10,948 bases of DNA, taken from IMG/VR virus record IMGVR_UViG_3300039313_000009, one strand, 5' to 3'. Source of the DNA: a virus (Duplodnaviria; Heunggongvirae; Uroviricota; Caudoviricetes). Below are positions 1 to 10,846 of this stretch, one piece after another. Below the pieces are notes generated by a model, which saw only the letters and a program-made list of their open reading frames with translations, searched no databases and was not told where the DNA came from. A program made the translations under genes and the position numbers. Position 1 is the stretch's first letter, and every line of letters begins with the position of its first letter.

Positions 1-94
1 CAAGGCATTTACGGGAGAAAAAATCGGCTCAAACATGAAGAAATGAAATGACTGAGTCAGCCGAGAAGAATTTCCCCGCTTATTCGCACCTTCC
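1..94 (+). mobile_element. IS5-type insertion sequence, terminal 94 bp of the transposase-distal end (terminal inverted repeat at 79..94); element body lies upstream of the window
   Basis: Bases 1..94 match from memory the 3' end of IS5, ending in cttattcgcaccttcc (reverse complement of the IS5 terminal repeat GGAAGGTGCGAATAAG). Bases 20..94 are a perfect reverse complement of 10874..10948. The flanking tetranucleotide CTAG (95..98) fits the IS5 YTAR target preference. Confidence 0.8.
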
Positions 95-111
95 CTAGAG
101 GCGGACGTTTT

Positions 112-1848
112 GTGGCAGAAGCTGTCGTTAAAGCTTTCAGCAGTGCGATCAAAGAAGGTTTTATCGAATATGAAAAACCATTCCTGATTGAGAGTGTTAC
201 GGATATCATAGGATCTGAGAGTGTTCAGGAATGTTTAAAATACCTTTCCGAACATGATAAGGTATTGACTATTTTCTTTGATCAGTTCGAAGAAGTCTTT
301 ATGAAAGAGGAACTATTCGGGCTATTTAAAGAATTTGAACGATTCGCACTCGATGTCTCGGCACTACAAAGCAATTTAGTTGTAGGGTTCTCATGGAGAA
401 CTGGTATTACTTTAGGGGATGAAAATCCAGCGTACTCAATGTGGAATCGGCTAAAAGATTATAGGGTTGAAAAGAAACTTGAGCCTTTTGATCTAAAAGA
501 TTCATCTAAATTAATTAATAGTTTCGAGCTAAATACAGGGTTTAAATTAAATAAACCTTTACGCACGCGTCTTATTCAGCAAGCTCAAGGTTATCCATGG
601 TTATTGAAAAAGCTTTGTATTCATGTATTCAAAAAACTAAAAGGAGGTATCTCACAGGATCAAATGTTGGTTAGTCAACTACAGATCTCAAATTTATTTC
701 ATGAGGATTTAGATAGGCCTGAAAAACAAAATTCATGTTTAAAATTTGTGGCAAAGAACTCTCCGATTAGTCAATATGAAGTTACTAAAGAGTTTGGGAG
801 TGATACTGTTTTAGAGCTAATTTCAGATAGGATGGTAATTAAAACAGGTGAAAAATTATCAGTGTATTGGGACGTTTTTCGAGATTACTTGAAAGGAAAT
901 GACCTTCCAGTTATACCATGGTCATATATGCCATCAACATCTCCGAAAATGGTTTTGTTAATTCTTGATGTTGTAAACTCGTTCAAAACCATTAGCTTGG
1001 ATGAACTGCAAACTAAACTAAAATATAGTCGGGGAACATTAATAAATGTTTTAATGGATTTGCAGTATTTTGTTCTCATAGACAGAGATTTAAATGGGAA
1101 TATAGTTTGTAAACAGACTATCACAAATGTCCCTGAGTTTCTTCGTGAGCATTTTAAGAGTCATAGTGTTTTGTTAGAATTGGCAGAGAATATTGTTGAT
1201 GCCGATTTAAGAAGAGTTCCTATCGATAAGTATGAATCTATAATAGCCCATACTTATAAGAATAAAGACGGTGGTTATCCTAAGTCTTATAGTTCAAAAT
1301 TATTGGCTTGGTTACAATTTACGGGGCTGATAGCGGTTATCGGGAAATCTGTGGTTATATATGATGGCGAGTTGTTTTCCCCAGCATTTGGGGCGATTGA
1401 TCTAGATAAAAGAGGGGCACGCAATAGAAGAGGATCACTTTTCTTAGCTGCTACTTCGCCAGAAAAAACACTCGAAGTTGCCGAGTATCTGTGCGCCAAT
1501 AAAAAAATGAGCCATTCATTCATTCAGGCGAATAAACATAGGAATGCAGTGCAGGATTTAATTTCTTTAGGTTTTTGTTCTCGACAAGATGATGGTGTGG
1601 TGATAAATAATAAAATAGAAGTTATATTAGAAAGCATCAGCCTTGAAAGGGCTTTAGCTAGGTTAGTCACTGAATCTCCAGCTATCAAAATATTAAATGC
1701 TTATGTAAATAAATTTGGCGATGATGATAAGAAAATGATGGGGGCAGCACTAGCAAAAGAACTTGAGAGAACATGGACACCTGCATCTACTACTAGATAT
1801 ATTTATGCACTAATGAGATATCGAAATTTCGCATTGGAAACTTTATAA
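112..1848 (+). CDS. STAND/AAA+-like NTPase, 5'-truncated fragment (IS5-disrupted; probably a pseudogene); winged-helix-like C-terminal region
   Basis: 578-aa ORF with Walker-B-like VLTIFFDQFEE near its start and a GxP-like QGYPWLL motif further on, but no P-loop anywhere. The reading frame stays open upstream of the GTG at 112 right through the IS5 junction (first in-frame stop at 49..51), so the P-loop region is expected to have been removed by the insertion. Stop TAA at 1846..1848. Confidence 0.5.
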   Translation: MAEAVVKAFSSAIKEGFIEYEKPFLIESVTDIIGSESVQECLKYLSEHDKVLTIFFDQFEEVFMKEELFGLFKEFERFALDVSALQSNLVVGFSWRTGITLGDENPAYSMWNRLKDYRVEKKLEPFDLKDSSKLINSFELNTGFKLNKPLRTRLIQQAQGYPWLLKKLCIHVFKKLKGGISQDQMLVSQLQISNLFHEDLDRPEKQNSCLKFVAKNSPISQYEVTKEFGSDTVLELISDRMVIKTGEKLSVYWDVFRDYLKGNDLPVIPWSYMPSTSPKMVLLILDVVNSFKTISLDELQTKLKYSRGTLINVLMDLQYFVLIDRDLNGNIVCKQTITNVPEFLREHFKSHSVLLELAENIVDADLRRVPIDKYESIIAHTYKNKDGGYPKSYSSKLLAWLQFTGLIAVIGKSVVIYDGELFSPAFGAIDLDKRGARNRRGSLFLAATSPEKTLEVAEYLCANKKMSHSFIQANKHRNAVQDLISLGFCSRQDDGVVINNKIEVILESISLERALARLVTESPAIKILNAYVNKFGDDDKKMMGAALAKELERTWTPASTTRYIYALMRYRNFALETL

Positions 1849-1857
1849 TTATTAAAT

Positions 1858-1877
1858 CATAGGGCGAAAGCCCTATG
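1858..1877. terminator. Bidirectional hairpin between convergent genes (NTPase fragment and integrase)
   Basis: Perfect 8-bp stem catagggc / gccctatg with gaaa loop, followed by a T-rich tract on the plus strand; it overlaps the integrase stop codon. Confidence 0.55.
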
Positions 1878-3060
1878 ATTTTACTTTTATACCCCACCAT
1901 GACATCAATTCTCTGCGTTGTTCTAAATAAATAGAACGATTATACGCCCGCCGTACTTCATTTTTATCTATATGCGCTAAAGCTGATTCTATAATATCGG
2001 AATTAAAACCAGACTCGTTCAACGCTGTGCTAGCTATAGAACGAAGCCCATGAGCAACGAGTTTACCGCCATAACCAATCCTTTTAAGAGCAGCATTAGC
2101 AGTTTGGCTATTCATAGGTTGTTTAGGATCATTCCTGCTGGGAAAAACATGTTCTCGGTGAGCGCTAATTGGCTTCATTACATCCAGAATCTCTAATGCC
2201 TGTGGTGATAAAGGAACAATGTGTTCCCGCTTAGCTTTCATCCGTTCGGCTGGAATAGTCCAGAGCTTCGTATCGAGATCGATCTCTGCCCAACGGGCAC
2301 CAGAGGCCTCAGAAGGGCGCACGAGCGTCAGGAGTTGCCATTCAATGAGACAGCGAGTCGGAACAGACAGATTTGACATGACTAAAGAACGCATCAGCTT
2401 CGGCAATTCTTCTGGCCGCAGCGTCGGCATGTTTTGTTTTTTGGGCTTCTCAAAGGCCATTCCAATACCTGATGCTGGATTGGCATCAATCAGACCAGTG
2501 TTTACGGCATAAATCATTATCTCGTTAATACGCTGCACTAGTCGACGTACAGTCTCAAGCGCTCCACGAGCTTTGATTGGTTCCAATGCTTCAACTAATA
2601 TTCGGGCTTTAATTTGCTGAACGGGGATCTCACCGATGGCAGGGAATACATCTTTCTCCAATGAGCGCCAAATGTCTTTTGCGTAATCAGGGGTAACGCT
2701 TTTACTTTTGAGCTGGAACCAGTTAGCGGCGACCATTGAGAAAATACTGTCCAGAGCGATTTGCTGCTGTTCCTCTGCAACTTCGGCCTGAATTTGTGGG
2801 TCAATTCCGTTGGCTAACAAGGCAAGGTAATCCGCTCTTAACCCTCGGGCGTCAGCAAGTGAAAGGGCGGGGAAAGCACCAAGCCCCATCATTGTCCGCT
2901 GTTTTGTCGCTGGACGTTGATAACGGAAACGCCAGAGCTTTTTCCCGCTGGTTTTCACTATCAGGAAAAGGCCATCGCCATCATGCAGAGTTAGATCCTT
3001 CTCTAACGCTTTAGCGCGAAGAACTTCGGTGTTGGTAAGGGGGCGTGTTGTCCGTGCCAC
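1873..3060 (-). CDS. int: P4-type tyrosine integrase (IntA/CP4-57-like family)
   Basis: 395-aa ORF. N-terminus MARTTRPLT..DGDGLFL..SGKKLWRFRY is typical of P4-like integrases; C-terminus has HGLRS and ALAH..VRRAYNRS motifs consistent with the tyrosine-recombinase active site. It lies about 185 bp downstream of an ssrA 3'-end repeat in the same orientation, as for ssrA/tRNA-associated islands. Confidence 0.9.
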   Translation of the reverse strand: MARTTRPLTNTEVLRAKALEKDLTLHDGDGLFLIVKTSGKKLWRFRYQRPATKQRTMMGLGAFPALSLADARGLRADYLALLANGIDPQIQAEVAEEQQQIALDSIFSMVAANWFQLKSKSVTPDYAKDIWRSLEKDVFPAIGEIPVQQIKARILVEALEPIKARGALETVRRLVQRINEIMIYAVNTGLIDANPASGIGMAFEKPKKQNMPTLRPEELPKLMRSLVMSNLSVPTRCLIEWQLLTLVRPSEASGARWAEIDLDTKLWTIPAERMKAKREHIVPLSPQALEILDVMKPISAHREHVFPSRNDPKQPMNSQTANAALKRIGYGGKLVAHGLRSIASTALNESGFNSDIIESALAHIDKNEVRRAYNRSIYLEQRRELMSWWGIKVKS

Positions 3061-3083
3061 TGTGGCCGCTCCTTCATGAATTG

Positions 3084-3129
3084 GTATACGCTTTTAGGTA
3101 TACATCCTACCGTATACCTAAACGTATAC
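3084..3129. repeat. Array of four GTATAC(C) motifs with 12-14 bp periodicity, directly upstream of the P4-type integrase start; candidate arm-type or regulatory sites
   Basis: GTATAC at 3084, 3098, 3112 and 3124; the last two copies are CGTATACC within a near-direct repeat. Confidence 0.4.
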
Positions 3130-3172
3130 CAATAATCACCGGATTTAGCCGGATGTTCTCGGACAACGACAG

Positions 3173-3214
3173 ACACAAAAAAGCCCGCAGGGCTTGTGCC
3201 ATGCGGGCTTTCTG
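3173..3214 (-). terminator. Rho-independent terminator on the minus strand (GC hairpin followed by a U-run), between the ssrA-derived repeat and the integrase
   Basis: Plus-strand aagcccgcagggctt (3181..3195) and alternative pairing gcccgca / tgcgggc (3183..3189 with 3202..3208). On the minus strand the hairpin is followed by TTTTTTGTG (complement of 3173..3180). Confidence 0.5.
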
Positions 3215-3245
3215 TACTTCACCGGACGTATCCGGATCATGATTT

Positions 3246-3275
3246 GGTGGAGCTGGCGGGAGTTGAACCCGCGTT
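3246..3275 (-). other. Attachment-site repeat: the 3'-terminal ~30 nt of the tmRNA gene ssrA (T-arm, acceptor 3' strand and CCA), without the rest of the gene
   Basis: The reverse complement of 3246..3275 reads acgcgggttcaactcccgccagctccacca, matching from memory the 3' end of E. coli ssrA. Sequence beyond 3275 shows no tmRNA-like continuation, so this is a partial copy (att direct repeat), not a functional gene. Confidence 0.75.
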
Positions 3276-3330
3276 CTATTAATGGTAAATAACTGTAATT
3301 TATAGCTTTTATTTGAAGTAGATCACATGC

Positions 3331-3377
3331 GTATCCTTTGTGGATACTTGAGGTATATGTTATATATAAAACATATA
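3331..3377. promoter_or_regulatory. AT-rich promoter region of the DarT-like operon with two palindromes (candidate operators)
   Basis: gtatcc-N5-ggatac at 3331..3347 and tatatgtt-N8-aacatata at 3354..3377, sitting 25-70 bp upstream of the ATG at 3403 among TATA-like hexamers. Confidence 0.4.
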
Positions 3378-3402
3378 TTTACATGAAGTAAATGGATGTT
3401 TT

Positions 3403-4026
3403 ATGACAATACAGGAAATAATTCAGCAACGTAATATTCGTAGCTTGTTTCATTTTACACATAGCGATAATCTAACTTCCATTTTAGATAATGGCCTTAT
3501 GTCTCGTTCAGAACTTGATAATGAAAATAATGAATATAATTATAATGATGAAGAAAGGATTGATGGTCATCCAGATGCGATTTGTTTGTCCGTAAGTTAC
3601 CCTAATGCAAAAATGTTTTATAAATATAGATGTTTAAAGCCTGGGGGCTGGGTTATATTAGAAATCAATCCATCTGTTCTTTGGGCTAAGGATTGCGCTT
3701 TTTATCCTACCAACGCAGCTTCGAATAACGTTCGTTTTATAAATATTGATTTGATGAAAGGAGCTGAGGCATTTAGTGCTTTGTTTTCAGAGAATGTTTT
3801 TGGGATTCAGAGAGATGTAAACCTTCCAAGTGAGTATACGACGGATGTTCAAGCTGAAATACTGGTATTTGAAAAAATTCCTCCCTCATATATTATAAGC
3901 ACTTTTCACCCTAACAAAGAATCTGCTGAACATTTCAAGAGATTATATCCACAGACAATACAGAGATCTTATGATAATCTTAATGCTAGAACATTTTATT
4001 CTCAGAGGCATTATTATTTAGGATAA
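3403..4026 (+). CDS. darT: DarT-like DNA ADP-ribosyltransferase toxin (DUF4433-type)
   Basis: 207 aa. LFHFTHSDNLTSILDNGL (residues 15-32) parallels the recalled DarT N-terminal motif (for example LFHITHMDNLPSILTSGL); QAEILVF (150-156) parallels the catalytic-glutamate motif; central CAFYPTNAASNNVRF resembles the conserved mid-region. AT-rich codon usage unlike the flanking prophage genes. Confidence 0.7.
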   Translation: MTIQEIIQQRNIRSLFHFTHSDNLTSILDNGLMSRSELDNENNEYNYNDEERIDGHPDAICLSVSYPNAKMFYKYRCLKPGGWVILEINPSVLWAKDCAFYPTNAASNNVRFINIDLMKGAEAFSALFSENVFGIQRDVNLPSEYTTDVQAEILVFEKIPPSYIISTFHPNKESAEHFKRLYPQTIQRSYDNLNARTFYSQRHYYLG

Positions 4027-4029
4027 GTT

Positions 4030-4719
4030 ATGGCCGTTAGACCTGTTTTCGTCCCTACAAACGCAGGGAACTTACTATCGATCACGAAGGATGTGGATTT
4101 TCCTTGGGCTCCTGGTATGTCTAAAACGCAAAAGCAAAAATCGATCAGGGCGTTACATACAGCAGCGAATGAGCAGGGATTGAACTCTTTGTTGGAAATT
4201 TCTAGTAAATCCGAAGATGCGCTGGGGGTAGCACTTAGTGCATTTAATCTAAGAATAAAGACGAAAAGACTTGGGAAAGAGTTTACAGTTGAATCTGCAT
4301 TTCAAGCAAGTAAAGTATTTGAAATGGGAGGACCATATGTCGATATCTTAGATAAAAGCTCGATAGAAGCAAAAAAAGATATGAGATTAAAGGAATCTGG
4401 GGGATTAGTTAACTTCAAATTTTATAATACAATATGGCCCATTGTCCCCAGGACTGCTTTTTATGATTGGTTATATTTGAGTGCGCTCAATCAAAACAAA
4501 AATCTAGCACTCCATCTATTAAATTTTGATGGATTTACTGATATTGAATTTAATCCAGCGAAATCTATTAATTGCCAAGCCAGAGCAGCTGCACTTTTTG
4601 TCTCTTTAGTAAGACGAAATATGTTAGATGATGTTTTATCTTCAAAGGATGGTTTTTTATCAAAATTAGCATCTCATTATGGTGTTGAAAATTATTCTAT
4701 TCAACATACATTGATATGA
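4030..4719 (+). CDS. Operon partner of the DarT-like gene: NADAR-like (YbiA/DUF1768-type) candidate ADP-ribosyl hydrolase antitoxin; no macrodomain signature
   Basis: 229 aa. Translationally coupled (3-nt gap, AGGA Shine-Dalgarno overlapping the upstream stop). LSAF..KEFTVESAFQASKVF aligns by eye with the YbiA motif FSNF..WPTSEHYFQAQKF, followed by SSIEAKKDM versus SSPMVAARM and a W...L..LL region. No DarG-like glycine-rich macrodomain motifs are visible. Confidence 0.5.
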   Translation: MAVRPVFVPTNAGNLLSITKDVDFPWAPGMSKTQKQKSIRALHTAANEQGLNSLLEISSKSEDALGVALSAFNLRIKTKRLGKEFTVESAFQASKVFEMGGPYVDILDKSSIEAKKDMRLKESGGLVNFKFYNTIWPIVPRTAFYDWLYLSALNQNKNLALHLLNFDGFTDIEFNPAKSINCQARAAALFVSLVRRNMLDDVLSSKDGFLSKLASHYGVENYSIQHTLI

Positions 4720-4721
4720 AT

Positions 4722-4745
4722 AATGGCCTGTAAAGGCCATTTTTA
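4722..4745. terminator. Bidirectional terminator hairpin between the DarT-like operon and the convergent lambdoid integrase
   Basis: Stem aatggcct / aggccatt with gtaa loop, followed by TTTT on the plus strand. Confidence 0.6.
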
Positions 4746-4751
4746 TCTAAA

Positions 4752-5921
4752 TTAATATCTATTTTTTCTATTTAAAGATGTATTTCCATCATATTCTTTG
4801 AGGTATGAGCCATAATGTCTAAATAACATCTCTGGTCCTTTATGACCCATTTGAACCGCAAGCCAAAACAGGTTTGCTCCCCGGCTGATATGGCTGGTGG
4901 CGAATGTATGTCTGGTTTGATATGGGTTTCTGTAACGAATACCTGCTTTCCGCAATGTTGGCACCCATGCTTTTTTTCTAATTGCATCAGCACTTGCCCA
5001 AGGCTTATTGGTCTTTGGATCTTCAAAGACTGTAGCATCCTTCATGAATGTAAATGGCTTCTGATTTATCAGCGCCAACATTGCATCTTCTGTCAGTTCA
5101 ACTTTACGAGTACCGGCTTTTGTCTTTGTTCCTTTGATAACACCGACAACACTTGCGCTCTGGACATGGGCAGTTTTTCCAACAAAGTCGATATCACGCC
5201 ATCGAAGGGCACATAATTCAGAACTACGCAGGCCTGTATGTATAGCGAACCGGAACAGATTCTCCCATTGTTTGTTTCCGGCTGCTGCTAGTAATGCATC
5301 AACTTCTGCTGGTGATAGCGGATCAACCACGTAGCTGCTTTCTGCTTCTGACTTATCACTTTGGTAGCGCGAAGCAGTTACCAACGATACGGGGTTAATT
5401 TGAAGTACCCCATCGGTTACGGCTTCATCAAGTGCTGACCGCAGGAAAGATAACTGGTTGCGAATTGTTTTTAAGGTCGTTTTCTGGCTTTGAATCCACG
5501 CTTTCAGGATTGCTGGTGTTAATTCACTTGCAGGGCAAATGTGGAGTGAGGCTAACGCACTACGGCATTTTTTATAACCACCAATCGTAGATGGTGAAAG
5601 TTTTCTCGTTTCGCAGATTTCAAGGTATTCGTCCAGGTACATTTTTACCGTTTTGCCTGCAGCAGCATTACCAAAAATTTTCAAACGAGCAGAACGGGGA
5701 AAATATTCCGCATAAATGAATGTTCCCCTTTCGATCTTATTATGAATTTCGCCGAGTGTGCGCTCGGCGTATTTAATGTTCTTTGGTGTTACTTCCAGAT
5801 TGGAAAGAGGCTCACGACATCTAACTCCTTTGTAGGTGAAAGTTATATTGATCGTTTCGCCCTGGCGGTGTTTCCTGATTGTTACGCCGCGCGGTAGTTT
5901 GAGCAGTTTTGTCTGGCCCAT
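4752..5921 (-). CDS. int: Lambdoid-type tyrosine integrase with an N-terminal arm-binding domain
   Basis: 389 aa. C-terminal motifs TRHTFAT, MGH and FRHYGSYL fit the R-H-R-Y tyrosine-recombinase active site. The N-terminus (KLPRGVTIRKH..ITFTYKGVRCRE) is arm-binding-like. GAGG Shine-Dalgarno 8 nt upstream; its 5' end overlaps the xis-like gene. Confidence 0.9.
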   Translation of the reverse strand: MGQTKLLKLPRGVTIRKHRQGETINITFTYKGVRCREPLSNLEVTPKNIKYAERTLGEIHNKIERGTFIYAEYFPRSARLKIFGNAAAGKTVKMYLDEYLEICETRKLSPSTIGGYKKCRSALASLHICPASELTPAILKAWIQSQKTTLKTIRNQLSFLRSALDEAVTDGVLQINPVSLVTASRYQSDKSEAESSYVVDPLSPAEVDALLAAAGNKQWENLFRFAIHTGLRSSELCALRWRDIDFVGKTAHVQSASVVGVIKGTKTKAGTRKVELTEDAMLALINQKPFTFMKDATVFEDPKTNKPWASADAIRKKAWVPTLRKAGIRYRNPYQTRHTFATSHISRGANLFWLAVQMGHKGPEMLFRHYGSYLKEYDGNTSLNRKNRY

Positions 5922-8650: not shown

Positions 8651-8900
8651 CGACCCTGCAAGGTCGGTTGGTTTCTCCACAAAACAGAGAAGAACACCTG
8701 CGGTGGCAGCCGCCCGGATGGATTGGGTTATGAGCCCGTCGTCCGGTGATGCTCTTCTCTGTTTTGCAAAAAAGGACGGTACCAGCCGGAAGCAAGGGTA
8801 CAAACTGGTACCGCCAGGACTACACACAGCATAAAGTTGTGGTGCCGGGTGCCTCCCGGTGCCTGGCGAAGGTTGCACACCAGGCGGGTGGGTATCCACA
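8651..8900. other. GC-rich, hairpin-dense non-coding block (candidate structured RNA, recombination site or gene remnant) in the divergent intergenic region
   Basis: 14-bp long-range inverted repeat caaaacagagaaga (8680..8693) / tcttctctgttttg (8754..8767) enclosing about 60 nt; hairpins cgacc..ggtcg (8651..8666), ccggg-tgcct-cccgg (8845..8859) and gcctgg-N13-ccaggc (8861..8885); GGTACC repeated at 8779 and 8807. Overlapping ORFs here are Pro/Gly/Arg-rich and look spurious. Confidence 0.35.
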
Positions 8901-9040
8901 GAAGGTCGACTGTCAGCCTCAACCTTAACCCGCGTGCGCTGAGCCGCATTCACCACAACGCTAAGGATTCTCTCTGGTTGAAAATACTTAGCTGTTATGT
9001 GCCTGCTTTTAGCCACATCAGGCGAGGTGGACCTGGTTAT

Positions 9041-10000: not shown

Positions 10001-10846
10001 TTACTTTGTAAGTTCTAGAACTCGTTGAGCCAGCCCTTTAAATTGTTCGTTAAAGGCGTCTCTGCTTGATTTCATTGTATTTAAGGCATGCCCAAATTGC
10101 CCTGAATCGCGAATTTGCTGATCACTGATGGAGAAAACAGGTGTCGCTAGTTGTTGGCTTATTGCGATTAATGAGTTGAAATCGGAAATATGCGCAAGAT
10201 CATAGGCTGATAAATCTCCACTGACTGTTGTTTTGTTAATTGCATGTTGCACTTTATCTCGTGGAATTATGCAGGTAATTTTTTCTAGATTTGGCACTAA
10301 GATCGAATCAACAGCATCACGGATAGCTGCCATCCATTTTTCGAAAGATTTTACAGGTGCTCCTTTACGCGGCCTGTATCTCTGCTGAATCATACCTAGA
10401 AACTGCGGTGCATTTTTAATTGATTGTGAAGAGTTACCATCATTATTTTCTTTAAATAATGCTAATTCTTTGTGCCAGCGAGGTATATTTTTTGAGAGAG
10501 AGCGAATTGCTTGCCAGCAAAAAAAGTCTGGAGCTACAGGTACGATAAAATAGTCACTTGACATGAGAACTACTTCATTTAAACCTCCAACATTAGGGCT
10601 GAGATCATAAAGAATGTAATCAATATTATTCTTCATGGCGATTAGCTGTAATATTTTTGGCAGGTTCCCTGGTATATTTCTTGTAGCAGGAATACCAGCA
10701 GCAATTTTTAGAGAAACACTTATCTGTGAATCTAAGTCCGAAACATCTAAATGTCCGGGAAGAAGCAGAAGGTTTTCATGCAGTGTAGGGTGTAATTTTC
10801 CCGTTTCTTTTTCAAGGTATGCTTCAGGTTGTCCGCCATTAATCAA
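10001..10846 (-). CDS. ParA/MinD/Soj-superfamily ATPase, 5'-truncated fragment (IS5-disrupted; frame open to 10873; deviant Walker A missing)
   Basis: The segment DYILYDLSPNVGGLNEVVLMSSDYFIVPVAPDFF matches the ParA core (hydrophobic strand, Asp, then ...P...S/T...AL..AD..hhP). The track start is a TTG and the frame continues open into the IS5 junction; no KGGxGKT P-loop is present. Confidence 0.65.
   Translation of the reverse strand: MINGGQPEAYLEKETGKLHPTLHENLLLLPGHLDVSDLDSQISVSLKIAAGIPATRNIPGNLPKILQLIAMKNNIDYILYDLSPNVGGLNEVVLMSSDYFIVPVAPDFFCWQAIRSLSKNIPRWHKELALFKENNDGNSSQSIKNAPQFLGMIQQRYRPRKGAPVKSFEKWMAAIRDAVDSILVPNLEKITCIIPRDKVQHAINKTTVSGDLSAYDLAHISDFNSLIAISQQLATPVFSISDQQIRDSGQFGHALNTMKSSRDAFNEQFKGLAQRVLELTK

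What the first reader, a model, noticed from the sequence alone, without database searches (positions are those of the whole stretch)
4030..4719. Candidate antitoxin has a NADAR/YbiA-like core instead of a macrodomain
By eye, LSAF..KEFTVESAFQASKVF..SSIEAKKDM aligns with the E. coli YbiA segments FSNF..WPTSEHYFQAQKF..SSPMVAARM (recalled from memory), placing the conserved Glu and Lys of the NADAR active site in register. NADAR domains have been reported to reverse guanine ADP-ribosylation by DarT1. This protein is longer (229 aa) with N- and C-terminal extensions, so it may be a distinct subfamily or carry an extra toxin-binding region.
Basis: partly seen in the sequence, partly recalled or inferred. 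Interest (0 to 1): 0.7.

Follow-up and report, generated by a model that had tools for sequence, protein, structure and literature searches.

The report
Known DarT1-associated NADAR antitoxin gene

The parts
3245..3325 (-). Partial tmRNA (ssrA) match. From memory, the core at 3245-3272 (tggtggagctggcgggagttgaacccgc on +) is the reverse complement of the ssrA 3' end. Interpreted as an att-site scar marking the end of the prophage that carries the toxin-antitoxin pair.
   Evidence: Rfam tmRNA RF00023, 22.6 bits, E = 6.4e-06, below the gathering score; sequence read; most E. coli matches begin at 3252; ypjA lies directly to the left in strain ECONIH4.
3403..4026 (+). darT1: a 207-aa DNA ADP-ribosyltransferase toxin, guanine-specific according to the literature. 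R52, D54 and E152 are intact.
   Evidence: Pfam PF14487 DarT E = 4e-23; PDB 8baq E. coli C7 DarT1 E = 3e-137, differing at 5 natural positions plus the engineered E152A; residues checked.
4030..4719 (+). nadar (darG1): a 229-aa DarT1-associated NADAR antitoxin. This is the finding.
4030..4209 (+). N-terminal extension to the YbiA fold (residues ~1-60; beta1 2-9, beta2 17-24, alpha1 32-47). The literature proposes it as an ssDNA-binding surface.
   Evidence: Secondary structure of the model; many invariant residues in this stretch (R4, P5, F24, W26, G29, Q34, K37, S38, H43); description of beta1-beta2-alpha1 in G. lovleyi NADAR (PMC11543638).
4210..4680 (+). YbiA-like catalytic core (residues ~61-217). 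It contains E88 (nt 4291-4293), K95 (4312-4314), K115 (4372-4374) and D171 (4540-4542).
4681..4716 (+). Short variable C-terminal tail whose last ~11 residues are predicted with low confidence. It is not an extra domain.
   Evidence: pLDDT < 50 for residues 219-229; mean identity 0.36 for residues 212-229 versus 0.66 for the core; lies outside the Pfam model.
4722..4741 (+). Terminator-like hairpin (8-bp stem followed by a T run) starting 3 nt after the nadar stop codon; the likely end of the operon.
   Evidence: Consensus scan. This is a pattern match only.
4752..5921 (-). Tyrosine integrase of the lambdoid (yfdP/Q/R-type) prophage. The toxin-antitoxin pair is cargo between this gene and the att scar.
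   Evidence: Pfam Arm-DNA-bind_2 plus Phage_integrase; same gene order in AR_0369 and ECONIH4.
1873..3060 (-). Integrase of a neighbouring P4-like satellite. This is context, not part of the system.
   Evidence: Pfam Arm-DNA-bind_3, Phage_int_M and Phage_integrase; psu and delta genes lie upstream in AR_0369 and EC1722-1.

Best explanation
The ORF at 4030..4719 encodes the NADAR antitoxin (DarG1) of a DarT1-NADAR (DarTG1) toxin-antitoxin and phage-defence module. The module is carried as cargo at the integrase-proximal end of a lambdoid prophage inserted at ssrA in E. coli. According to the literature, DarT1 (3403..4026) transfers ADP-ribose from NAD+ onto the N2 amino group of guanine in ssDNA and so blocks replication. 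The NADAR protein is an ADP-ribosyl-glycohydrolase that cleaves this linkage, using E88 and D171 around the distal ribose and K95 on the phosphates. It therefore neutralises the toxin by erasing its product rather than by binding it, which makes it a type IV antitoxin. Shown here: family membership, fold, catalytic residues, operon structure and conservation. Taken from the literature for the near-identical E. coli C7 protein: the enzymatic activity, rescue of toxicity and loss of rescue in mutants. Inferred: that this particular allele behaves the same way.
Against: Nothing substantive. No experiment has been done on this exact allele. Its DarT1 differs from the crystallised C7 protein at 5 natural positions, and the darG1 primer published for C7 differs by one synonymous base, so the window is not strain C7 itself. 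PADLOC v2.0.0 and NCBIfam 20.0 have no model that hits the antitoxin, but that is a gap in those libraries and not contrary evidence.
Confidence: 0.95

Rival explanations
1. The antitoxin works mainly by sequestration, as a type II antitoxin: the N-terminal extension or the C-terminal tail binds DarT1 and blocks it, and catalysis is secondary.
For: The protein has a conserved ~60-residue N-terminal extension absent from YbiA. K115 is needed for rescue in vivo but not for catalysis in vitro, and the K95R mutant is active in vitro but does not rescue, so the authors leave open a contribution beyond hydrolysis (PMC11543638). YbiA and phage NADARs are active in vitro but do not rescue DarT1 toxicity (PMC11125620).
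Against: Bacterial two-hybrid shows no DarG1-DarT1 association (PMC11257639). Catalytic mutants E88Q and D171A/N lose rescue. Non-cognate NADARs rescue DarT1 from other species. The extension carries a conserved positive groove that the authors propose for ssDNA binding. The last ~11 residues of the C-terminal tail are low-confidence and the tail is poorly conserved.
Confidence: 0.04
2. It is a housekeeping YbiA-type N-glycosidase, acting in riboflavin-intermediate detoxification or swarming, that merely happens to lie next to DarT.
Against: There is no hit to the YbiA family model PF08719 at E <= 1. The last-strand catalytic residue is Asp171 and not the YbiA-family Glu (PMC11125620). Adjacency to DarT is conserved across distant taxa. 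The pair is found in only 29 of 5,426 E. coli genomes, on a prophage, with low GC. E. coli already has a separate ybiA gene.
Confidence: 0.005
3. The pair is a decayed, non-functional remnant on a degraded prophage.
For: The neighbourhood contains frameshifted genes and IS elements in related genomes.
Against: Both ORFs are full length with every catalytic residue intact. The pair is >=95% identical in 29 genomes. An intact toxin gene with no working antitoxin would be lethal.
Confidence: 0.005

Closest known systems
E. coli C7 DarT1-NADAR (DarTG1; DarG1 antitoxin), Schuller et al. 2023 Mol Cell (PMC11543638)
   Same: Same length (229 aa). All nine published mutagenesis positions hold the same residues. 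The adjacent DarT1 is ~97% identical to PDB 8baq. The operon order and species are the same. For practical purposes it is the same system.
   Different: It is an allelic variant: 5 natural substitutions in DarT1 relative to the crystallised protein, and at least one synonymous difference from the published darG1 primer. I could not retrieve the C7 NADAR sequence itself, so exact identity of the antitoxin to C7 is untested.
Geobacter lovleyi NADAR, PDB 8BAT
   Different: A different host, with a variable C-terminal tail.
E. coli YbiA (PDB 2B3W; Pfam PF08719, the YbiA family of the NADAR superfamily)
   Different: There is no significant sequence similarity. YbiA lacks the N-terminal extension. 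YbiA has Glu in the last strand (E125) where this protein uses D171. YbiA does not rescue DarT1 toxicity in vivo. YbiA is a chromosomal housekeeping gene, not part of a toxin-antitoxin operon.
DarG of DarTG2 (macrodomain antitoxin)
   Same: The logic is the same: an enzymatic eraser of DarT-made DNA ADP-ribosylation, encoded next to darT.
   Different: The fold is unrelated (macrodomain versus NADAR). DarG removes thymine-N3 ADP-ribose where NADAR removes guanine-N2 ADP-ribose. DarG also has a C-terminal DarT2-binding domain, whereas NADAR is a single domain with no detected toxin binding.
Phage AdfN / T4 gp30.3-type NADARs
   Same: They belong to the NADAR superfamily and remove DarT1-made ADP-ribose from DNA. 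DarT-associated NADARs are their closest relatives (PMC11257639).
   Different: They lack the N-terminal extension, have His at the last-strand catalytic position, and cannot replace DarG1 as an antitoxin in uninfected cells.

Membership tests
DarT1-associated NADAR antitoxin (Pfam PF22397; BC4488-type clade of the NADAR superfamily) | Scores above the curated family cut-off over the full length of the model | tested here: met
   299.6 bits against a cut-off of 27, E = 1.4e-89, residues 2-211 on profile positions 1-210 of 212.
DarT1-associated NADAR antitoxin (Pfam PF22397; BC4488-type clade of the NADAR superfamily) | YbiA-like (NADAR) core fold | tested here: met
DarT1-associated NADAR antitoxin (Pfam PF22397; BC4488-type clade of the NADAR superfamily) | N-terminal beta1-beta2-alpha1 extension preceding the YbiA-like core | tested here: met
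   Strands at 2-9 and 17-24 and a helix at 32-47 in the model, with conserved residues in this stretch, matching the published description of 8BAT.
DarT1-associated NADAR antitoxin (Pfam PF22397; BC4488-type clade of the NADAR superfamily) | Catalytic Glu and Lys, an Asp (not Glu or His) at the last-strand position, and the clade-specific Lys115 | tested here: met
   E88, K95, D171 and K115 are present and invariant in 42 homologues. Their roles are defined in PMC11543638 and PMC11125620.
DarT1-associated NADAR antitoxin (Pfam PF22397; BC4488-type clade of the NADAR superfamily) | Encoded immediately downstream of a darT1 gene in one operon | tested here: met
   DarT1 at 3403..4026 and NADAR at 4030, on the same strand. 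The same adjacency is seen in Enterobacter, V. cholerae and another genome.
DarT1-associated NADAR antitoxin (Pfam PF22397; BC4488-type clade of the NADAR superfamily) | Hydrolyses guanine-N2-ADP-ribose on ssDNA and rescues cells from DarT1 | not testable with these tools
   Shown experimentally for E. coli C7 NADAR (PMC11543638). For this allele it is inferred.
YbiA family sensu stricto (Pfam PF08719) | Matches the PF08719 model | tested here: not met
   No PF08719 hit at E <= 1. BLASTP against YbiA finds nothing. hhalign of the two family profiles gives E = 0.21.
YbiA family sensu stricto (Pfam PF08719) | Conserved catalytic Glu in the last beta-strand (YbiA E125) | tested here: not met
   The functionally equivalent position is Asp171. 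The nearby E173 is dispensable according to PMC11543638.
DarG (DarTG2 macrodomain antitoxin) | N-terminal macrodomain plus a C-terminal DarT-binding domain | tested here: not met
   The only Pfam family hitting the protein at E <= 1 is PF22397, so no macrodomain family matches, and no macrodomain structure is among the top fold hits.

The most novel reading that the evidence does not exclude
The conserved N-terminal extension, together with K115, is what turns a generic guanine-ADPr hydrolase into an effective in-cell antitoxin. It might do this by targeting the enzyme to ssDNA at replication forks, or through transient contact with DarT1. This would explain why YbiA and phage NADARs are active in vitro but cannot rescue. 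The function of the extension is still described as unknown in the literature (PMC11257639), and my data (strong conservation and a confident fold) are compatible with this reading but do not test it.
Probability: 0.35. Interest if true: 0.4.

Novelty: already known. Interest (0 to 1): 0.08.

Why it matters
It matters mainly as a calibration result. A by-eye alignment that is statistically insignificant at the sequence level nevertheless picked out the right fold and two of the three catalytic residues of a published enzyme family. The locus is a textbook DarTG1 defence module, riding as cargo between the att site and the integrase of an ssrA-integrated prophage, next to a P4-like satellite that carries its own STAND-NTPase cargo. 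There is no new biology in the antitoxin itself. The open questions about this family are what the N-terminal extension does, what gives in-cell specificity, and how infection releases DarT1 from NADAR control. These are already recognised in the literature, and this window does not make them more testable.

Tried and rejected
(1) Direct sequence comparison with YbiA found nothing significant: BLASTP gave no alignment; hhalign of a 42-sequence NADAR-DarT1 profile against a 31-sequence YbiA profile gave E = 0.21, probability 0.28; and the gapless diagonal scan gave z = 0.7. Both profiles have low diversity (Neff ~2.5), so this is a weak test. More divergent sequences might bridge the two families, but structure made that unnecessary. 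(2) search for related loci with the single protein returned only two close Enterobacter loci, so I used the look-up of encoding contigs on distant homologues to check operon conservation. (3) ARAGORN found no tRNA or tmRNA gene; the att scar only appeared through the permissive Rfam scan. (4) The promoter scan of 3050-4800 was no better than shuffles (8 sites against 7.4 expected), so no promoter is claimed. (5) PADLOC and NCBIfam gave no hit for the antitoxin, which reflects gaps in those libraries. (6) I considered and rejected a macrodomain DarG, a housekeeping YbiA, a sequestering type II antitoxin and a pseudogene remnant; these are covered under the rival explanations.

Full report
OBSERVATION. 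The window contains an ORF at exactly 4030..4719 on the + strand, encoding 229 aa. The ORF starts 3 nt after the stop codon of a 207-aa ORF at 3403..4026 on the same strand. An AGGA Shine-Dalgarno-like motif lies inside the end of that upstream gene. A terminator-like hairpin at 4722..4741 follows the ORF.

WHAT IT IS. The protein matches Pfam PF22397, "DarT1-associated NADAR antitoxin", end to end: E = 1.4e-89 and 299.6 bits against a cut-off of 27. It also matches the crystallised Geobacter lovleyi NADAR, PDB 8BAT, at E = 3.5e-71. The upstream protein matches Pfam DarT (E = 4e-23). It is nearly identical to crystallised E. coli C7 DarT1 (8baq, E = 3e-137), differing at five natural positions plus the engineered E152A. 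The DarT1 residues R52, D54 and E152 are intact.

A protein 100% identical to the antitoxin is already in public databases under the name "DarT1-associated NADAR antitoxin family protein". The family has more than 6,000 clusters at 90% identity. The pair is present at >=95% identity in 29 of 5,426 complete E. coli genomes, where RefSeq labels the antitoxin either with that name or with the older name DUF6977.

Segments 1 and 2 lie on one gapless diagonal at offset +40. This places S70/F72 on YbiA S30/F32, E88 on E48 and K95 on K55. That diagonal is the best-scoring of all diagonals in a profile-profile scan, and it is the only stretch hhalign aligns.

It also agrees with the published structure-based equivalences, C7 E88 = Pn E43 and K95 = Pn K50 (PMC11543638). 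I chained these to YbiA through the significant YbiA-8BAU phmmer alignment (E = 1.9e-12).

The sequence evidence on its own is not above chance. BLASTP finds nothing. hhalign gives E = 0.21. The best diagonal has z = 0.7, and 57 of 300 column shuffles reach its score.

The third segment (SSIEAKKDM on SSPMVAARM) uses offset +41. The published K115 = Pn K75 equivalence, together, implies offset +40, which also pairs A114-A74, K116-R76 and R119-R79. That segment is therefore probably shifted by one residue. This is an inference, because I could not run a residue-level superposition.

MECHANISM. Schuller et al. 2023 (PMC11543638) report four relevant results. DarT1 links ADP-ribose to the N2 amino group of guanine in ssDNA. 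E. coli C7 NADAR (229 aa) hydrolyses this bond and rescues cells from DarT1. E88Q, K95A and D171A/N abolish activity and rescue. K115 is needed for rescue but not for catalysis.

All nine residues they mutated (E88, K95, K115, K116, R119, K121, D171, E173, K178) are present at the same positions here. E88, K95, K115, R119 and D171 are invariant in 42 homologues down to 55% identity.

The N-terminal extension appears in the model as strands 2-9 and 17-24 and a helix 32-47. It matches the beta1-beta2-alpha1 extension described for 8BAT, which the authors propose forms a positively charged ssDNA groove. The "C-terminal extension" is only a poorly conserved tail (residues 212-229 average 36% identity) whose last ~11 residues (219-229) have pLDDT < 50.

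Bacterial two-hybrid found no DarG1-DarT1 association, and the authors classify DarG1 as a type IV antitoxin (PMC11257639). Non-cognate NADARs also rescue DarT1.

MEMBERSHIP. Every sequence, structure and context feature of the DarT1-associated NADAR family is met. Only enzymatic activity cannot be tested here. [quoted passage not shown] It is not a macrodomain DarG either, since PF22397 is its only Pfam hit at E <= 1. Operon adjacency to DarT is conserved in two Enterobacter loci, three Vibrio cholerae contexts and a 7-Mb genome.

CONTEXT. The pair lies in a low-GC stretch, 32-39% against 45-50% in the flanks. On one side is a fragment of tmRNA (ssrA) at about 3245-3325 on the minus strand (Rfam partial hit; sequence). 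On the other is the integrase (4752..5921) of a lambdoid prophage carrying yfdP/Q/R-type genes. In most genomes the match begins at 3252, inside that fragment, and in strain ECONIH4 the chromosomal gene ypjA lies directly to the left. The pair is therefore cargo at the integrase-proximal end of an ssrA-integrated prophage.

To the left in this window is a P4-like satellite: its integrase at 1873..3060, plus the C-terminal part of an nSTAND1 NTPase in its psu-int slot. In strain EC1722-1 the same att-int slot of the prophage holds an AAA ATPase plus an RloB-family protein in place of DarT1-NADAR, so the slot carries variable cargo.

VERDICT. Novelty: already known. Interest: low.

Noticed in passing
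window 1..1848 (+): The ORF running in from the left edge is the C-terminal part of a ~913-aa 'nSTAND1 domain-containing NTPase' (WP_000113630.1 in strain EC1722-1). It lies between psu and the integrase of a P4-like satellite, which I recall as a known defence-cargo hotspot of such satellites. Strain AR_0369 has a different gene in that slot. The part inside the window has no significant Pfam or PADLOC hit.
   Followed up: partly
window 3245..3325 (-): A partial tmRNA (ssrA) match lies here. From memory, the core at 3245-3272 is the reverse complement of the ssrA 3' end, which would make it an att scar between two mobile elements integrated in tandem (a P4-like satellite and a lambdoid prophage). 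ARAGORN did not report it. A weak partial IsrM hit lies next to it at 3177-3254.
   Followed up: partly
L004 4807..6758 (E. coli EC1722-1), equivalent to window ~3300..4750: The same slot between the att scar and the prophage integrase carries an AAA-family ATPase plus an RloB-family protein, which resembles an AbiL-type system from memory, in place of DarT1-NADAR. The slot therefore looks like an exchangeable defence-cargo position.
   Followed up: no
L002 and L003 (Enterobacter), 2365..3687: The antitoxin is much better conserved than the toxin: NADAR is 82% and 80% identical to the window protein, while the adjacent DarT1 is only 70.5% and 53% identical. The toxin may be diversifying faster. 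Pressure from phage anti-DarT proteins that bind DarT would be one possible cause, but I did not test this.
   Followed up: no
window 3403..4026 (+) and its RefSeq annotations: RefSeq names the toxin 'DarT ssDNA thymidine ADP-ribosyltransferase family protein', although DarT1 is guanine-specific according to PMC11543638. PADLOC-DB v2.0.0 and NCBIfam 20.0 have no model that hits the NADAR antitoxin, so tools relying on them would see an orphan DarT. Some genomes still use the older name DUF6977.
   Followed up: partly
L005-L007 (Vibrio cholerae): The V. cholerae DarT-NADAR pairs sit among DUF645 genes, acetyltransferases and other toxin-antitoxin cassettes (RelE/MqsA-like, TacA-like). That is a gene-cassette-array-like context (superintegron-like, from memory), unlike the prophage context in E. 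coli.
   Followed up: no
window 8766..8989 (-): A match to the sRNA family STnc100 (RF02076) scores 40.3 bits, below the gathering score of 47 (E = 4.7e-06). It lies in the GC-richer part of the prophage.
   Followed up: no
window 10001..10846 (-): This ORF carries an AAA_31 (ParA-like ATPase) domain (E = 3.9e-10) and lies in a lower-GC stretch at the right end of the window. The ORF as listed starts at TTG and may be longer or truncated.
   Followed up: no
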